NCBI GenBank assembly: GCA_964016885.1
Contig: OZ024748.1
Span: 16,306,001 to 16,370,000 of the forward strand
Length of the DNA: 64,000 nt
Source: Eledone cirrhosa
Taxonomy: Eukaryota
Reading direction: 5' to 3'
The translations under genes and the position numbers were made by a program. This document shows, piece by piece, positions 2,155 through 46,475 of the stretch; position 1 is the first letter of the stretch; the number at the start of each line of letters is the position of its first letter. The notes beneath the pieces were generated by a model. The model did not search any database. It saw only the letters and a program-made list of their open reading frames with translations, and was not told the origin of the DNA.

Positions 2155-2507
2155 AGTGTTCTTTTTCACTAATATTTCTGCTCTGCTTATACGCATAGAG
2201 CTTAACTAGCTACCGTCACATATTTGGTAGGTCAGACGTGATCATCGCGATTCACATACGACCTACCATACATCTTGCTTATATATATATATATATATAT
2301 CTTTCATATAAAATGACATCTCTAGGACTGGATTTGTTTCATTCATTTGAAATAACTCAAATGCATGTAAAAGTTCTAGATTTCTAGGGGTCATATCTAT
2401 ATGGAATAAATATACAGCTTTTCTACTATTATATTGAGTACCTCATTTAGCGGTGGCTCCAACCCATTATATATATATATAAGTATGTGTGTATATATAT
2501 ATATATA

Positions 2508-3496: not shown

Positions 3497-3900
3497 AATA
3501 AATGTAATCTGAGTTTTTCGAATATTAATAATAATTTTCCATTCATTTGCAATTATGTAAACAGCTTCTTTTATAAGCCATGTCAGTAGAATGAGCCCCA
3601 CATTCTCACTCTTTTGTTGGCATTCAATCAGAACTGCCGACACTAATGTTTCTGGGTGAGAACCCTTCATCAGTGCAGTTTACTGCTTACTTGCCAATTG
3701 TCAGAGCTAGTGAAAATATATGATATTTTCTGAAATATATAGTGACTGATCGGCCTGATTTGCATATTAGCAGACTGGCTGATCAGAGCGAGAATGAGGG
3801 GCTCATTCTACTGATATGGCTTATAAAAGAGGCTGTTTGCATAATTGCTAACGAATCAAATATTATTATTAATATTTGAAAAACTCAGATTACATTTATT
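3497..3900. mobile_element. Penelope-like fold-back fragment: about 116-bp inverted arms (3497-3612 / 3785-3900) around a hammerhead-containing spacer
   Basis: AATAAATGTAATCTGAGTTTTTC...ATTCTCACTCT mirrors AGAGCGAGAAT...AAAACTCAGATTACATTTATT; flanked by (TA)n. Confidence 0.7.
3632..3680 (-). ncRNA. Type I hammerhead ribozyme motif
   Basis: Minus-strand RNA: AACUGCA-CUGAUGA-A-GGGU-UCUC-ACCC-A-GAA-ACA-UUAG-UGU-C^GGCAGUU. Stem I AACUGC/GCAGUU, stem II GGGU/ACCC, stem III ACA/UGU, GUC cleavage triplet. Confidence 0.8.
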
Positions 3901-3924
3901 GTATTCAGCCATGAAGAGCGATAA

Positions 3925-3980
<56 letters not shown>

Positions 3981-20645: not shown

Positions 20646-20827
20646 AATAGCTTTCACCGTATTTTTGACTAAAGAAATTTTAGCCTGATAATGGGGTTTA
20701 GAACCCTCAGATAAATGGAAAAAGATGAGTATTGACGTCAATACTCATCTTTTTCCATTTATTTGAGGGTTCTAAACCCCATTATCAGGCTAAAATTTCT
20801 TTAGTCAAAAATACGGTGGAAGCTATT
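20646..20827. repeat. 182-bp spacerless palindrome
   Basis: Centre at 20736/20737 (TATTGAC|GTCAATA); 91-bp arms with two mismatches. Confidence 0.9.
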
Positions 20828-24588: not shown

Positions 24589-24691
24589 CATGTATACAAA
24601 TATATATATTTTTTAAATATAGAAATGGCTTCTACAGGACTAGAACTGTTTTACTCGAAGGAAATCATTAGGAAAGGCCAGGATACAATTT

Positions 24692-24773
<82 letters not shown>

Positions 24774-25916
24774 CATATTGATTGAACCCGGGATTCACAC
24801 ACACACACGTACATATATATATATATAAGTATGGATATAAATGTCCATATAATGTCTATATAATGTGCATGCATTTGTATACATATACATATCTATACAT
24901 GCATACACATATATACATGAGACCGCATGTGGGTTTGTGTGGGTTTCTATCTGACTCAGCTATTTAACTATCAGTTTCAATGTTGCCAGACTAAAGAGTT
25001 CCAAGTTGTCATCTATGGTTTGTACTTTTGACAATGCCATTTCCTCTCCTTTAGAATTTATGAAATTATACAGTATTCTCTTGAACTTTTACAATTTTTC
25101 ACTATTCATATCGCAGGACAATAGCAACTGAAGAAGAAGAAGGAGAACAACAACAATAACAACAACAAAAAAATACAATGATATTGAATGAAACCTACTG
25201 AAGAAAGAAAACTAAAATTCTGTGAAGTAAAACTCTAAGTTTGTATCTTCTTGTTAATCATTCAAATATTTTATCATGAATAATGTTGTAGCCGAAACTG
25301 AAATGAAGCTAAAATAGATAAATAAATATAATGTTACTCGATAGAATGCCTAGCTCAGAGATCAGAGAGTCACTCCAGGTAGAGCCGCTACTTCTCTGAA
25401 TTGAGAGATCACAGTTCCGATATTATGGCTTGTAGTTAGAATGTCTCAGGAAAGAATTGTAGGATTGATTTTATTATGAGCAAAACCAACCGGCAGGAGA
25501 TCCTGGGGGTAGAGAAAGATAGTTGGATAACATCCATGAACTTGGCTGGTCTTACTTGGGGGTCCAGTCAGATTTATTGGTGATGGTTGCTTCTGACAGG
25601 GGCTGCTGGGATGGAGTGTTTGAGGACTCTACCCCTACGACCCAAGAAGAAGAAGTTAATTAATTAATTAAAAAAGAAATGCAGACCTAAATGAATGAGA
25701 ATCAATCATTTTAAATAAGTGTTCCAGTTGCTTGATCAATTTAACAGTCTGCTCAGGAAATTAACGTGGTTGAACACTCAATTGACATGAGTTGTACTTT
25801 TAATCTCCCTGAGGTTACACGTGACTGTGGAATGCTCAGCCACTCACAAGTTAATCTCACTAGCAGGCAGCTCTGTTGATTGAATCTCACTGAGTGATCT
25901 CTGTCATAAAATGATG

Positions 25917-32115: not shown

Positions 32116-34998
32116 CATGCTAGCAGGGAAATAGGATGTAAAAATGACAATGATGATGATGATAATATATATATATATATATGTATATATAGATATATAG
32201 ACACATTCCTATTTAAATTCTTGTTTAGGTAGGTAAATCACAAATGAACATAATAATCTCTCACATATAAAAAAAAAGAAGCAATTTGCCTATTTATTTT
32301 TTCTATTTCAAATGCAATTTTTCTTCTTCCTACAAAAAAATTTACCAGATTTATGTCTAACATACGATTTCTGCTATTTACCATTTAATTGAGATAGACG
32401 TTAACTCTTTGTTGTGTTTTTTCCGATGCATTCTTCACATCTATTATCATAGGAACAATGAGGTGGTGTATTCTAACAAGCGTAACATTATCAGCAACCA
32501 GTAAAATTATTCTAGTTTATATCCAATAAGGTCATTTAACTCCTATCAAATTTTTTAATGTATTAAAATCTTTTCCAGTGATTGAATTAACCTGCACTTT
32601 TCATATTCTTCTGTAAACAGAATCTATGGCCTTCAATTTCTAGTGGAGTCATAGGAACACTAACAGGATACACAGCTAGTCTTCTTTATTTTAACAAACT
32701 GGCTATAACTGGCCACTCATACTGATGTTAAGGCAATGTTCTCAAAATAAATATCAAAATTTCATAAATTCGATATTATGCGAGATAATTGTGTGAGATA
32801 AAACCTTTACTGAGAAAATATAATAGTAAATATATAATAATTGTTTCTTCTTTTGGCACAAGGCCAGCGATTACCCAGTGCATTACTGGTACTTTATTTT
32901 ATCGTAAGGATGAAAGGCAAAGATAATAATGTAAATAATAAAGGGTTAAAGCTGGTACGGCCGTCTCCCCTTAACAAGGTTTCATCATAGCTGATTATCA
33001 TCATCATCATCATCATCATCAGGTTTAGCGTCCGTGTTCCACGCTTGTATGGGTTTGGACGTGGGGTTTTCCCACTTGAGGCAAGAGTGGTTGTCTTGCT
33101 CGCATAGGACTGTCTGGCGGGTTTTCTACAGCTGGATGCCCTTCCTAACACCAACCACATTTACAGTGTGGGGCTGGGAGGTTTTTACCGTGTTGCCTAC
33201 ACGGCCACATTTACAGCGTGGACTGTGTGTTTTTTGTCGTTTTTTATCAAAGAAAAAAGGGGAGGATGAAGAGAGAAAGTGAGATAGATAGCAAGGGGGA
33301 GAAAAGTAGACTCCAGTATTGAAGAGTCCTTCTGACCTTTTGCAAAGCAAATGTAACTTGGCTGCTATTTCCAGCATGTCAAGCGACCACATAAATGCTC
33401 CCTCATCTCATTAGTCTTGTGTTGTAGCATTTGGTATTATCACATCACTCTTTTATCCCCTCGTGTATTAATTAGTGTATGCCCAATATACTAGTTAACC
33501 TTTATTACTCTTTAGGATTCAGGATTGTGAATGTATGTATGAGTGACAGTGAGAGACAGAGAAAGCAAAAGAAAGAAGAGGTGAGTCTTTAAGTAGTGTA
33601 AACAGTATAAACACTGACTAAACCAGAGATAATATATATATAGAGATAGAGATAGAGAGAGAGTGAGTGAGTGAGAGAGTGAGTGAGAGAGATATATATA
33701 AAATATGTACACTTTCATGTTATTTCCACTACTACCCTTCACCCACTTACGTTTATAGTTAGATCACCTCCTACTGTGTGACACAAAATATATAAATACA
33801 GATGGGTAATTATTATAAACGATACATACATTCTTATATTCTTTTATTACTGGCTTCAGTTATTTGACAATGGTCATGCTGGGTCATTACCATTATACAC
33901 ACACAGACAAACATATGCACATACATATGTTATTATATTATGTACACACACACATATAAGTATATACATCACCAATAAACGTAATGAAGGGTTAACAAAT
34001 CATCCTTGTATTATTATATTACACTGTCTAGCTCTACACCTTGCCAACCTAAACATTGAGTGCTCACCTTCATGTTATACCCCCTGGATATATATATATA
34101 TATATACATTTTGCCTTTCATCCTTACGGGGTCGAAGAAATAAAGTACCAGTAATGCACTGGTGTTTTGCTGACCTTGTGCCAAAAGTAGAAACAATTAT
34201 TTGATATAGAAATTGCTTCTACAGCACTCTGTTTCATTCATCAGGAATTCTTGATGATTGTATATGAATGATACAGTTATAGTCCTGGAGGAGTCATTTC
34301 TATATTAAATAATTGTTTCTACTTTTGGCACAAGGCCAGCAATTACCCAGTGTATTACTGGTACTTTATTTTATCAACCCCGTAAGGATGAAAGGCAAAG
34401 TTAACCTTGGCGGGATTTGAACTCAGAATGGCAAGGGCCGTAACTCTATGTGTCAAAGCATGGCGTCCGACCCTCTACCGATACTGACAATCCACCACCA
34501 TTTCTATATTAAATAATTGTTTCTACTTTTGGCACAAGGCCAGCAATTACCCAGTGCATTACTGGTACTTTATTTTATCAACCCCCGTAATGATGAAAGG
34601 CAAAGTAAAATGATGGTTCCTCTCTACCAGCGTATTGAGTACCTTTTTAACTCTGGCTACCCATGATTTCACTTGGGATGAACATACATGTCTGTGTTTC
34701 TATGCAAATAAGTATGTATATATGATATGTGTCTGAAATCTGAAAAGTAACAGGACTTTCTGTACTGTGTGAGCTATAAGTAGGGTAGAGATTAGTCGGT
34801 TGCGTTGCCATCTGACATAATATCTGGGGAGTGTGTAACTGCGATCTCAGTTCTCTGTAGACATTGTATGTTTTTTGGTGTACTATTGTTAACAGCTATC
34901 CAATTTTAGGTAATCGAGTGATGGACACACGGCAACAATCCAACCTGAAGCTTCTGGTCTGGCTGGGGAAAACTCCATCAGAAGCACTCAGAATACAT

Positions 34999-35844: not shown

Positions 35845-37676
35845 TATCATCATCATCATTTTACGTCCACTTTACCCAGCTTGCAAGGGTGGGACGGGTC
35901 TTATTCAGCACAGTATCTCTACACTTGTCACGGTCCTTTGTCATCTCCACCGTGAGCTTCAGCGATCTGAGGTCTGTTCTCACCCCCTCCGCCCATGTTT
36001 TTCGTGGTCTACCCCTACCACGTCTTCCTTCAACTGGCATTTCCTGGCACTTCTTCACTCATCGGTCATCCTCCATGCGCATCACATGTCCATACCACCT
36101 CAGTCTCCTCTCTCGCACACTACATTCTATCCCTCTCAGACACAGTTTCTCTCTCAACACATTTATGCTGGGTCGTTCACGCACATTGACATTGCACATC
36201 CAACGGAGCATGCTTGCCTCCTTTCTCTCCAGCCGTCGCATATCCTCTGCAGTTGCTGCACATGTCTCACTACCATGCAGCATCGCGCTCCTCACACAGG
36301 CATCATATAACCGGCCTTTGTACGCAGGGAGAAATACTTCTTCGACAGCAGAGGAAGCCGCTCCCTAAACTTCTTCCAACCCGGCCTTATTCTAGATACT
36401 GTGGCCTCAGAACAGCCCCCTTCCATCCTAATCTGATCTCCTAGGTACCGGAAGCTATCCACCACTTCTATAGCACCCGTCTGCATTTGAAAAATGTGTC
36501 TATCAATGCGATTTCTACTGTCTAATTTCCCTGTACATGTACTGCATACGTATTTCTCCCTACCTGTTAGTTTGCCTGCTATCCCATTACATCTCTTGTG
36601 TACCCAGGATCTGCATTGTGTGCATTTTATAGAATTTATGCCAGTTCCTTTTCTGCATATCGAACATGGCTATTTCCCTGACGGAATCAGGGTTTTGTCC
36701 ACTTTTCTACTCATCAACACTTTTGTCTTAGCTAGGTTCACTCTCAGTTCTCTTGCTTCCAACTGCTGTTTCCATAGCCAGAATTTATTCTCTAGTTCCT
36801 CTACTGATTCTGCTATAAGAACCAGATTGTCAGCATAGAGAAGTTCCCATGGAGAAGTTCCCATAGAGAAGTTCCCATGGAGAAGTTCCCATAGAGAAGT
36901 ACCCTGACTTTACTGAGAGTACCTCTGTACAAAGTTTGCACTGTCCTCACAACCCATTCCTCAACACCTAGTTTCCTTAGGGACCACCAGATGACAGATC
37001 GGGGTACTCTATCAAAGGCCTTCTCTAGGTCAACAAAGGCTAAGTATAGTGGCTTATTTTTCTCTAAGAACCTCTCTTGTAATTTTCTCACCAAGAAGAG
37101 GGTATCTGTTGTACTCTTCCCAGGCACAAAACCAAACTGCATCTCATCTAGTTTGACCCTTTCTCTAATTAGTTGTGCTAATATCCTTTCTTCCACTTTC
37201 ATAACCTGATCCATCACTTTTATACCCCTATAATTGCTCCTCTCCAGAGCATCCCCTTTACCTATGTAGCAATTTATGAGAATACTGCTGCACCAGTCTT
37301 TGGGTATGACACCACCATATATAGCCTGATTGATGATGCGTGCAACCAGTTTAGTGCCTACGTCCCCTGATGCCTTCAGCATCTCAGCAACTATCTGCGA
37401 TGGTCCAGCAGCCTTACCATTTTTCATTTCCTTAATCGCCTCTTGGACCCTATATTCATCAATCTCAATAGCTGGTCCCTCTGTTGGATCTACTGAGGGT
37501 AATTTCTCTCTCTCCCATCGTTCTCCACATTCATCAGTCTCTCATGGTGACATTTCCAGGCCTCCTTTTTCTGATCATTCGGGACACTAAGTACACCGGC
37601 ATCATTTTGGACACATTTATCTCCAACAACATCCTGATTTGCATTGACACACTGCCTTGCAATGTGGAACATCGCA
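35845..37676 (-). mobile_element. RTE-clade LINE, 5'-truncated and inactivated ORF2 (RT domain to 3' tail)
   Basis: MKNGKAAGPSQIVAEMLK...NYRGIKVM...QFGFVPGKSTTD...YLAFVDLEKAFDRVPR...WELLYADNLVL...FRYLG...MLHGSET...RRLRWYGHVMR...RGRGRPRKTW. YADD is mutated to YADN, with stops and frameshifts; (GAT)n tail. Confidence 0.95.
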
Positions 37677-40118: not shown

Positions 40119-40440
40119 ATAGTGAAAGAGTGAAGAATAACATGGTCAACCGTACAAAAAGGGTTTTATTTACAGTATTAACAATTGTTTCATTGATTAA
40201 GTTGTCTAAAAATTGCTAATCACTTGAAGTTGTCTCACTCAATTTTAAATACAATGTATGCTTAATCAAATCATCGGAAAAATGATGATTTGATTAAGCA
40301 TACATTGTATTTAAAATTGAGTGAGACAACTTCAAGTGATTAGCAATTTTTAGAGAACTTAATCAATGAAACAATTGTTAATACTGTAAATAAAACCATT
40401 TTTGTACGGTTGACCATGTTATTCTTCACTCTTTCACTAT
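40119..40440. repeat. Fold-back with 157-bp arms (40119-40275 / 40284-40440) and an 8-nt loop
   Basis: Arms differ at about 2 positions; the right arm ends in (TA)n. Confidence 0.9.
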
Positions 40441-43844: not shown

Positions 43845-44749
43845 AATGTGTGTGAGTGTATGTGTAAGTGCGTATGAGTAAGTGTGTATGTGTAAGTGTG
43901 TATGTGTAAGTGTGTATGTGTAAGAGTGTATGTGTAAGAGTGTATGTCTATGTGTGTGTATGTGTAAGAGTGTATGTCTATGTGTGTGTATATATGTATC
44001 CATGTCTGCATTTGTTTATGCCCTGTAAATTATTGGCTTGACAAAAAATGATCCATAAGATAAGTAACAGGCTATAAGAAATATGAACGGATGTCAATAT
44101 AATTAACTAAACTACCAGAAAACCACCCTTCAGGTGGTTTTCTGCTAGCATGTGTAGTGTTTATATTGATATTATACGCAAGTATATATACATGTAGATA
44201 TGATACATCAAATAAAATCGTAATTGACAATATAAACAGAAATTGAACGAAGACGTTGTTACGCTGTCTTATGTAATGAGTAACGTAATCCATGATACAT
44301 TAAAAAAAGACGATATTAAATATAAACTGCATTAGGAGAAAATTAGAGACAGAAAATTAGTATGTTTATTTAAGTGATCGCCACCGAAAGTGTTGACATC
44401 ACACACTCTCTATTTCTATGTATATGTTAGTTGAAGTGGTGATGGTGGCAACGATATACTGGAAGTGCAACTTTGAAAAGAAGTCAATTTTAAATTATTT
44501 ATTTTTACGAAATTATTTTTCTTTACGAAATTTAGTAGATAAATTATGTAATATTCATTTATTATTTATTCAAAGTAATCCAGCTTATTTTACTAACAGG
44601 ATAACAAAAAAAAATAAACCGTACGCAATCATGCAGACCTTCCTTTATTATAGTTTAGATGCCTTCAATACAATGGCTGCAAACTAAAGACTGCAACCAA
44701 GAAAAGAGTGATATATATATGTATATATATATATATATAATATAGAAAT

Positions 44750-44800
44750 GGCTTCTACAGGACTAGAACTGTTTCATTCGGGAGAAATCATCAGGAGGCC
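44750..44800 (-). ncRNA. Type I hammerhead ribozyme motif
   Basis: Minus-strand RNA: GGCCUC-CUGAUGA-U-UUC-UCCC-GAA-U-GAA-ACAG-UUCUAGUC-CUGU-A^GAAGCC. Stem I has 5 of 6 pairs, stem II UUC/GAA, stem III ACAG/CUGU, GUA triplet. Decayed family copies at 24627-24679 and 34214-34300. Confidence 0.75.
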
Positions 44801-44820
44801 CGATTGAACCCAGAATAAAC

Positions 44821-44891
<71 letters not shown>

Positions 44892-45184
44892 CTATTAATA
44901 ATTGTTTCTACTTTAGGCACAAGGCCAGCAATTACCCAGTGCATTACTGGTACTTTATTTTATCGACCCCGTAAGGATGAAAGGCAAAGTCAACCATATA
45001 TATATATATATGTCTATTAATAATGGTTTTTATATAATGTGTCTATTAATAATAAAAGTATTTATACTTGTATATAATCTATATACAATTATAAATACGA
45101 AAGGAGTATCGTCAGCAATTAGATGGGATTTTCACACCAAATTTACAGAGATCAATAATTGATTTTGCTATTTTCTCTGATCGC

Positions 45185-46475
45185 TTTGATTCTGTGCTGG
45201 ATGTTCATGTTAAAAGAAGGGCTAAGCAGTCAACTGATCACCATTTAGTTATCTGCAATTTGAGAATACCAAAAGCCAAAGAAGACCACAAAAGTGGCAG
45301 ATCCAGGGCAACTTACAGGGTAAAGTAGGAAGTGTTGCGGGATAAGGAAGTCAGGACCAGGTATATAGATACTATAGGATACTATAAGGAAGTCAGGACC
45401 AGGTATATAGATACTATAGGATACTATAAGGAAGTCAGGACCAGGTATATAGATACTATAGGATACTATAAGGAAGTCAGGACCAGGTATATAGATACTA
45501 TAGGATACTATAAGGAAGTCAGGACCAGGTATATAGATACTATAGGATACTATAAGGAAGTCAGGACCAGGTATATAGATACTATAGGATACTATAAGGA
45601 AGTCAGGACTAGGTATATAGATACTATAGGATACTATAAGGAAGTCAGGACCAGGTATATAGATACTATAGGATACTATAAGGAAGTCAGGACCAGGTAT
45701 ATAGATACTATAGGATACTATAAGGAAGTCAGGACTAGGTATATAGATACTATAGGATACTATAAGGAAGTCAGGACCAGGTATATAGATACTATAGGAT
45801 ACTATAAGGAAGTCAGGACCAGGTATATAGATACTATAGGATACTATAAGGAAGTCAAGACCAGGTATATAGATACTATAGGATACTATAAGGAAGTCAG
45901 GACCAGGTATATAGATACTATAGGATACTATAAGGAAGTCAGGACTAGGTATATAGATACTATAGGATACTATAAGGAAGTCAGGACCAGGTATATAGAT
46001 ACTATAGGATACTATAAGGAAGTCAGGACCAGGTATATAGATACTATAGGATACTATAAGGAAGTCAGGACCAGGTATATAGATACTATAGGATACTATA
46101 AGGAAGTCAAGACCAGGTATATAGATACTATAGGATACTATAAGGAAGTCAGGACCAGGTATATAGATACTATTACATCCAAATTCAGAGAACTCCCTGA
46201 GCAAACTGAGGTTGTTGAGACAGAGTGGAGATTGTTCAACTCAGCAGTTTCTGCTTCAGCTGTTAAATGTTGTGGGTGAAAGAGGATTGGTGGGGTACAG
46301 GATGAGAGACCCGGGTGTAGACCCTGAGCAAGATGGTAGAATTACATCATGAGCTTATATGGTCTCAACTGGGGATCCAGCGGGATCAGTTGGAGACAGG
46401 ACCCGCTGGAAGGAGTGTTTGAGGAGTCTGGCCTCATGACCATCTCAGGAATAAGTGAGAGAAGAAGAAGAAGAA
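45185..46475 (+). mobile_element. Internally deleted RTE LINE (APE C-terminus, linker and 3' end) containing a 42-bp minisatellite
   Basis: DSVLDVHVKRRAKQSTDHHLVICNL (APE SDH-like motif), then LRDKEVRTRYIDTI/TSKFRELP...EWRLFNSAVSASAVKCCG; (GAA)n tail. Confidence 0.75.
45343..46173 (+). repeat. 42-bp minisatellite, about 20 units
   Basis: TAAGGAAGTCAGGACCAGGTATATAGATACTATAGGATACTA; single-base variants in units 7, 10, 15 (C>T) and 13, 19 (G>A). Confidence 0.95.

What the first reader, a model, noticed from the sequence alone, without database searches (positions are those of the whole stretch)
44750..44800. Third hammerhead family: an 80-bp module between (TA)n tracts, in several decay states
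Seen: a complete motif with a GUA triplet in a module of about 80 bp (44740-44822) bounded on both sides by TA microsatellite. The same ATAGAAATGGCTTCTACAGGACTAGAACTGTTT sequence recurs at 24619-24679 with a mutated core (CUAAUGA, UAAA), and at 34205-34305. Inferred: a high-copy element reduced almost to the ribozyme alone and associated with (TA)n. All three intact motifs are on the minus strand, the same strand as the candidate exons, so they could cut a host pre-mRNA intron.
Basis: partly seen in the sequence, partly recalled or inferred. Interest (0 to 1): 0.75.

Follow-up and report, generated by a model that had tools for sequence, protein, structure and literature searches.

The report
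Penelope retrotransposon stub carrying a hammerhead
This 83-base piece is a real hammerhead ribozyme motif, but it is a short end-fragment of a known type of jumping gene that lands in TA repeats, one of thousands of copies that are likely dead ends, and it is predicted not to fold into the cutting shape where it sits.

Summary
The type I hammerhead motif is real (core 44794-44756, minus strand, GUA cut 44756/44755). It is not a stand-alone element. The same sequence continues into the ORF of a Penelope-like retrotransposon with Hydra-clade motifs. A young sister branch has intact 713-aa ORFs and two compensatory pairs in stem I. The 83-bp module is chimeric: the ribozyme arm plus an inverted 24-nt piece of the element's tail. 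At least 2,100 near-identical cores exist, without chromosome-strand bias. Of 60 position-sampled copies, 53 begin at the ribozyme's 5' edge, about 30 nt behind a TATA box; 36 of 38 inverted pairs have one short and one long end. They are likely paired cDNAs that ran off the start of uncut RNA. Cores decay almost like loops (16% vs 21% changed), and the window copy is predicted misfolded. No host exon was found, so the intron-cutting idea has no support. Hydra elements with hammerheads and (TA)n targeting are published, one from an octopus (PMC8557442). This scan found the same system elsewhere in this genome, and the run-off pattern in other genomes.

The parts
44750..44800 (-). Type I hammerhead motif: stem I (5 of 6 pairs), CUGAUGA, 3-bp stem II closed by U-U, GAAA, 4-bp stem III with 8-nt loop holding a CUAG palindrome, GUA cut at 44756/44755
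44740..44800 (-). Direct arm of the insertion: element positions -44 to about +20 (cut site = 0), ending at the short 3' end
44799..44822 (+). Inverted arm: 24-nt piece of the element's tail (+68..+91), ending at the long 3' end; 2-nt overlap with the direct arm
44711..44744 (.). (TA)n tract, left target flank
44823..44885 (.). (TA)n tract, right target flank
24612..24676 (-). Second insertion, direct arm (-43 to short end), core mutated at G5 and G12
24780..24794 (+). Inverted tail piece (+71..+85) likely of the second insertion, separated from its arm by a (TA)n tract; short match
34204..34305 (.). Third insertion: head-to-head pair of decayed arms, each followed by a SINE-like insertion; left arm has lost stem II
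34632..34689 (+). Tail (+38..+91, 74% identity) likely of the right arm of the third insertion, displaced by SINE-like insertions
2302..2470 (.). Fourth, oldest insertion: head-to-head pair, left arm short end, right arm running on into a diverged tail (tail part read by eye)

Best explanation
The module is a stub of the end repeat (pLTR) of a Penelope-like retrotransposon with Hydra-clade motifs, likely made when the element's enzyme nicked a (TA)n tract and copied only the first bases of its own uncut RNA. Shown: the stub's sequence continues upstream into a CCAAT/TATA region and downstream into the ORF; insertions end at two fixed points about 65 nt apart; paired arms nearly always use one of each; 5' ends stop at the first base of stem I. 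Inferred: the RNA starts 30 nt behind the TATA box, at stem I; the two nicked DNA strands are primed at the two internal start sites; both cDNAs run toward the RNA's 5' end and are joined head to head. In this copy one cDNA reached the 5' end and the other stopped after 24 nt. Inferred: the stub lacks the promoter and is a dead end that decays neutrally. The ribozyme is kept by selection only in source elements, where it would cut slowly (as a dimer or with protein help) to trim read-through RNA to unit length.
For: Tail runs directly into the ORF start in 7 old-branch loci (L122-L127, L129); ORF pieces in 8 old-branch loci are 53-83% identical to the intact protein. 5 of 6 fetched young-branch loci hold a 713-aa ORF; L159 has a ribozyme at each end, 4,797 bp apart; L160 has head-to-head pLTRs. 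Motifs RWR, DKT, YRDD, CxCx5C, VYxC..YIG, CxxC, CxH match the Hydra description, and the CUGAUGAU..UGAA layout matches published Hydra hammerheads. 60 loci taken in order of position: anchor ends 39 short, 21 long; 40 have an inverted arm; 36 of 38 classifiable pairs are short+long (p 2e-9 against independent choice); inverted arms, which were not selected for, start at -44..-34 in 21 of 40, beyond -44 in 2, at the cut site in 1. A 35-mer just upstream of the wall has 139 exact copies against 1,669. TATA-to-core distance is 36 nt in 15 of 16 matches, in both branches, despite different spacers. Internal priming at two sites on both strands, with uncut RNA as the main template, is shown in vitro for another PLE (PMC11167929, parts 1-2). 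Stem I has two pairs changed on both sides between branches.
Against: No RNA data fix the start site or show cutting. The young branch has 1,425 exact copies of a 39-mer that crosses the -44 wall, and I could not count its copies that stop there, so the wall is shown only for the old branch. The anchor arms were chosen by a 35-mer that forces a start at or before -30. The 60 loci come from one stretch of contig C1, and two (L174, L192) look like duplicates. No intact ORF of the window's own branch was seen in 8 loci. Core sites are somewhat more conserved than base composition predicts (core/loop ratio 0.74 seen, 0.88 expected from tail rates). Pfam gave only a sub-threshold GIY-YIG hit (E 0.069) and no RT hit for the protein. 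No phylogeny against named Hydra proteins was built. The covariation rests on 10 related rows, in effect 2-3 lineages.
Confidence: 0.8

Rival explanations
1. Same PLE origin, but the wall at -44 comes from reverse transcriptase stalling or fold-back at the structured ribozyme, or from a 3' splice site just before stem I, not from a transcription start.
For: Both branches have a CAG within a few bases of stem I. In D. virilis Penelope the intron ends at the 5' end of helix I (PMC4209133 part 2). Self-priming was proposed for palindromic junctions (PMC3846280 passages). The young branch often crosses the wall.
Against: The CAG sits at different offsets in the two branches while the TATA distance is fixed. 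No shared upstream exon is seen in stubs. A stall would be expected where the enzyme first meets stem I on its 3' side, not after copying through it (inference). Fold-back alone does not explain one short plus one long end.
Confidence: 0.12
2. The stubs are a self-propagating non-autonomous mini-element (retrozyme-like or MITE-like palindrome) that spreads as a unit.
For: They outnumber upstream-bearing copies about 12 to 1. DNA contigs of one sample show a head-to-tail joint 77 nt back within the young-branch ribozyme. Non-LTR retrozymes derive from pLTRs (bioRxiv 10.64898/2026.07.22.740005, part 1 and passages).
Against: Inversion junctions differ from copy to copy, so the palindrome is remade at each insertion. 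Stubs lack the TATA region. No regular tandem array of the old-branch stub in the fetched loci, only scattered near neighbours; the 77-nt joint was not in any fetched locus or in the first 100 of 1,425 listed places.
Confidence: 0.05
3. One reading: intact copies on a host gene's sense strand cut intronic pre-mRNA and are under selection for or against that.
For: The core is intact and the fold is possible in isolation. Retrozymes are under-represented in Xenopus introns (10.64898/2026.07.22.740005 passages). Core sites are slightly more conserved than expected.
Against: No host exon confirmed. Predicted misfolding in context. 16% of otherwise perfect copies have a core change. Animal PLE hammerheads cut weakly, as dimers or with protein help (PMC4209133; PMC11167929). 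Inverted pairs silence themselves (L059 active-fold probability 1e-48).
Confidence: 0.03

Closest known systems
Hydra clade of C-terminal GIY-YIG Penelope-like elements, incl. Hydra-1_Obim (Craig et al. 2021, PMC8557442; section 11, passages and supplement tables S1/S2 read)
   Same: Single ORF of about 710 aa with DKT, CxCx5C linker, CxxC and CxH motifs; (TA)n targeting; hammerhead with CUGAUGAU..UGAA layout; 5'-truncated, inverted insertions with a tail at one end.
   Different: A different family from Hydra-1_Obim (other hammerhead and N-terminus, compared by eye). RWR for RWK. Loop III is 8 nt where listed Hydra motifs have 1-3 nt; stem II has 3 bp. Tail about 65 nt against 30-40. Unit period 4.8-5.0 kb because of a microsatellite-rich 3' region, against under 3 kb for most.
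Hammerheads in metazoan pLTRs, mostly single motifs from truncated PLEs (Cervera and de la Pena 2014, PMC4209133; parts 1-2 of 4 read)
   Same: Thousands of dispersed single motifs, close pairs on opposite strands, palindromic helix III loop fit for dimers (duplex -12.8 vs hairpin -1.4 kcal/mol).
   Different: Here helix III is a full 4-bp stem and helix II is short; G10.1-C11.1 is replaced by U-U.
PAc Poseidon element in vitro (Frangieh et al. 2024, PMC11167929; parts 1-2 of 4 read)
   Same: Two internal priming sites that give the tail, both strands extended, AT-rich targets, uncut RNA as template.
   Different: In PAc the ORF starts inside the ribozyme and priming is within the ORF; here both end points lie before the ATG (about +138).
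Non-LTR retrozymes (PMC7229834 passages; bioRxiv 10.64898/2026.07.22.740005 part 1 and passages)
   Same: Type I hammerhead, non-coding, PLE-related.
   Different: Retrozymes are head-to-tail repeats of 150-450 bp with a ribozyme in each unit; these stubs are single or head-to-head, 65-270 bp, with variable junctions.

Membership tests
Type I hammerhead ribozyme | Core C3-A9 CUGANGA, G12-A15 GAAA, U16.1-H17 | tested here: met
Type I hammerhead ribozyme | Three helices, stem I open, with covariation | tested here: met
   98% of cells paired; 2 stem I pairs changed on both sides among 10 related rows; window copy has one mismatch
Type I hammerhead ribozyme | Match to an Rfam hammerhead model | tested here: not met
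   no match at E up to 10. Published Hydra motifs were found by descriptor search, not Rfam
Type I hammerhead ribozyme | Self-cleavage | not testable with these tools
   needs an assay; folding predicts low occupancy in context
Penelope-like element (EN+) | Single ORF with RT then GIY-YIG endonuclease next to the pLTR | tested here: met
   713-aa ORF with YRDD and VYxC..YIG; 692 homologues at E up to 1e-20, one of the 120 listed with Pfam RVT_1; Pfam on the query itself sub-threshold
Penelope-like element (EN+) | Partial tandem pLTRs, inverted 5'-truncated copy, tail at one end | tested here: met
Hydra clade | DKT, CxCx5C linker, CxxC and CxH around the endonuclease, no CCHH | tested here: met
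   absence of CCHH judged by eye
Hydra clade | RWK motif | tested here: inconclusive
   RWR here; 6 of 7 aligned homologues have RWK
Hydra clade | Insertion into (TA)n and a hammerhead | tested here: met
   20-nt downstream flank passed my TA-richness cut in 30 of 60, most others being microsatellite or AT-rich
Hydra clade | Generally under 3 kb | tested here: inconclusive
   ORF 2.1 kb, but tandem period 4.8-5.0 kb in L158 and L159
Hydra clade | Groups with named Hydra proteins in an RT phylogeny | not tested
   reference proteins seen only as text in the supplement
Non-LTR retrozyme | Head-to-tail repeats with a ribozyme in each unit | tested here: not met
   window and old-branch loci; unresolved 77-nt joint in the young branch
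MITE / DNA transposon | Fixed terminal inverted repeats and fixed interior | tested here: not met
   arm lengths and junctions vary; the two ends differ in 36 of 38 pairs

The most novel reading that the evidence does not exclude
The stubs are a genome-scale record of the PLE copying reaction: the RNA begins at the first base of the ribozyme's stem I, one enzyme dimer primes the two nicked strands at two fixed sites on uncut RNA, and both cDNAs run off the 5' end and are joined head to head. The 5' ribozyme would then act only as a slow clip of a 44-nt capped leader. In the young branch a 77-nt ribozyme-only tandem unit, half the size of described retrozymes, may have arisen from such a stub. 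I did not find the run-off rule in print (searches, listings plus passages of 4 papers).
Probability: 0.45. Interest if true: 0.5.

Novelty: new member of a known kind. Interest (0 to 1): 0.24.

Why it matters
As a locus it matters little: it is one of thousands of decaying stubs. As a family it offers clean end statistics (one short plus one long end in 36 of 38 pairs; a sharp 5' wall 30 nt behind a TATA box) and intact young ORFs, so the unresolved PLE integration mechanism and the role of the pLTR hammerhead could be tested directly in a Hydra-type element. It also warns that hammerhead counts in such genomes mostly measure retrotransposon debris, and that intron orientation tests are confounded by head-to-head pairs.

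Tried and rejected
Rfam: the 150 listed of 559 window matches were all miRNA models, on microsatellites and inverted repeats; none for hammerheads at the locus. First idea that the neighbouring SINE-like repeat is the body of the element: rejected, other copies have unrelated flanks. MITE: rejected, see membership. Walking upstream through the (TG)n tract gave only patchy shared sequence; the parent was found downstream. C1:108.47 Mb looked like a tandem element but is a local duplication across a gap. No PLE ORF remnant in the window (tblastn). PDB sequence search: nothing significant. Cap-derived G at -45: G in 9 of 14 junctions, but several are explained by the inverted arm and two are likely duplicates; inconclusive. 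77-nt tandem: DNA search empty (common words are skipped), not in first 100 of 1,425 places or in fetched loci; unresolved. PMC5785220 was a wrongly recalled id and is unrelated; the paper on dimeric PLE hammerheads that I sought was not read. Supplements of the bioRxiv preprint were not seen and may list related families.

Full report
Observation. On the minus strand the locus reads as a type I hammerhead: stem I with 5 of 6 pairs, CUGAUGA at 44794-44788, a 3-bp stem II closed by U-U, GAAA, a 4-bp stem III with an 8-nt loop, and GUA with the cut at 44756/44755. A loose scan gave 3 such motifs in the window and 5 in 30 shuffles. (TA)n tracts flank it. Rfam has no matching model at E up to 10. 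The genome looks like an octopus by its SINE-like repeats; that label is recalled and comes from no call.

What it belongs to. The first genome search returned 60 matches, many as close inverted pairs. Their flanks showed a longer unit: the ribozyme plus a tail of about 90 nt ending in (TA)n. Some copies extend upstream through a TATA and CCAAT region to a (TG)n tract. Downstream, the tail runs straight into an ORF start in seven loci of the window's branch; ORF pieces in 8 such loci are broken and 53-83% identical to the intact protein. A young sister branch has a 713-aa ORF in 5 of 6 fetched loci, ribozymes at both ends 4,797 bp apart in L159, and head-to-head pLTRs in L160. The protein has RWR, DKT, YRDD, CxCx5C, VYxC..YIG, CxxC and CxH, the marks given for the Hydra clade of Penelope-like elements (PMC8557442 section 11). 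It has 692 homologues at E up to 1e-20 among 7,995 scored candidates; of the 120 listed nearly all are unnamed. Pfam on the protein was sub-threshold. The paper's supplement lists Hydra families with (TA)n preference and hammerheads of the same CUGAUGAU..UGAA layout, including Hydra-1_Obim, which by eye is another family.

Anatomy of the window copy. Taking the cut as 0, 44800-44740 is the direct arm from -44 to the short end, and 44799-44822 is an inverted piece of the tail (+68..+91) ending at the long end. So the 80-bp module is a two-armed insertion. 7 of 60 sampled loci have such a tail-only inverted arm, 5 of them with a direct arm starting at the ribozyme.

Numbers. Exact counts in 3.0 Gb: 859 for a 43-mer (433 plus, 426 minus), 1,669 for a 35-mer, 139 for a 35-mer just upstream of stem I, 1,425 for a young-branch 39-mer. 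I fetched 60 loci covering the first places listed, all on contig C1. Anchor arms end short in 39 and long in 21; 40 have an inverted arm; 36 of 38 classifiable pairs are short plus long, none long-long (p 2e-9); two pairs could not be classified. 53 of 60 anchor arms start at -44..-30, with the caveat that the anchor forces a start at or before -30. The unselected inverted arms start at -44..-34 in 21 of 40, beyond -44 in 2 and at the cut site in 1. The young branch has the same two ends (16 short, 12 long, 2 other of 30; 4 of 4 close pairs short plus long). The first T of the TATA box lies 30 nt before stem I in both branches although the spacers differ (15 of 16 matches).

Selection. Between branches, two stem I pairs change on both sides (C-G to A-U, G-C to A-U) and loop II changes freely while stems II and III do not; these are few lineages. 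Among inserted copies, freeing six core sites adds 312 copies (16% of 1,981) and freeing six loop III sites adds 432 (21% of 2,101). The ratio, 0.74, is near but below the 0.88 expected from G/C and A/T rates in the tail. The gap may be loop variants in source elements or weak constraint. Strong purifying selection on inserted cores is excluded.

Mechanism. Shown: PLE origin, two fixed 3' ends, their pairing, the 5' wall in the old branch, the TATA spacing. From the literature: a purified PLE protein nicks and extends both strands of AT-rich DNA, primes at two internal RNA sites that define the tail, and uses mainly uncut RNA; its ribozyme cuts only with protein present (PMC11167929). The tail at one end only and the inverted copy are described (PMC8557442), as are a TATA-like box in a rotifer pLTR (PMC3846280) and a TATA-less internal promoter in Drosophila (PMC2377424 passages). 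Inferred: the RNA starts at stem I; priming at the 5'-proximal sites gives cDNAs of about 65 and 135 nt that run off the 5' end and are joined head to head; the products lack the promoter and are dead ends. Copies span the cut site unbroken, so their template was uncut. Against: the young branch often crosses the wall, and no RNA evidence exists here.

Host effect. Of 62 open stretches scanned, only a LINE-type RT passed a Pfam cut-off, and short exons would be missed, so a host gene is neither shown nor excluded. In context the inverted tail piece is predicted to pair with stem II and GAAA; the active fold has probability 1e-11 to 1e-9 against 2e-3 alone and 2e-2 for a family copy with perfect stem I. 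These models ignore tertiary contacts, so only the comparison counts. 28 of 60 insertions carry an antisense arm over GAAA-to-cut. Animal PLE hammerheads are weak and likely dimeric (PMC4209133); the loop III palindrome allows a -12.8 kcal/mol duplex.

Novelty. A new family of a known kind. Two literature searches for hammerheads in octopus or cephalopods returned PMC8557442 and a squid genome paper as the relevant listings. The run-off rule was not found in print. Earlier notes of this scan describe the same system in this genome and the same run-off pattern in other genomes; none matched this sequence or place. I had reached the PLE and run-off reading before seeing them; they are not independent support. 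Verdict: real motif, ordinary origin, modest mechanistic value; interest 0.24.

Noticed in passing
L158:1175-1253 (contigs of runs X1, X2): Head-to-tail joints going back about 77 nt inside the young-branch ribozyme region at summed depth of several thousand, one sample. Could be a tandem array of a 77-nt ribozyme-only unit; not found in fetched loci or in the first 100 of 1,425 listed places.
   Followed up: partly
G000:C1:83679791-83691720 (L254, L255): Array of 12 young-branch pLTR copies at about 1.08-kb spacing, each with an intact ribozyme core and long end, separated by microsatellite-rich sequence; retrozyme-like in layout.
   Followed up: partly
window 3639-3673 (-): Second intact CUGAUGA/GAAA/GUC type I motif of another family, inside an imperfect inverted structure between (TA)n tracts (about 3500-3930).
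   Followed up: partly
flanks of L013, L014, L015, L024, L025, L027, L029, L039, L087, L109, L119: Several other hammerhead-like or palindromic stub families sit in the same (TA)n tracts, so many PLE families appear to nest in shared targets.
   Followed up: no
L158:3510-5000, L159: The intact element's 3' region holds about 2 kb of (TA)/(TG)-rich sequence between the stop codon and the promoter-like region.
   Followed up: partly
window 34100-34630 and 44890-44996: SINE-like repeat inserted repeatedly at the short end of the element (both arms of the 34204 pair, with a duplicated target at 34498); its identity as an octopus SINE is recalled, not tested.
   Followed up: partly
window 35900-37541 (-): Broken LINE-type reverse transcriptase ORF (Pfam RVT_1, E 3e-11 for 36816-37541).
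   Followed up: partly
window 45342-46173: 42-bp minisatellite, 19.8 copies, 98% match, open in one frame on each strand.
   Followed up: no
window 20680-20793 and 40224-40339: Near-perfect inverted repeats of about 110 bp, not this family.
   Followed up: no
L154:6729-9500 (-): Open frame of 924 aa of a different Penelope-like family with RT and GIY-YIG-like motifs (read by eye).
   Followed up: no
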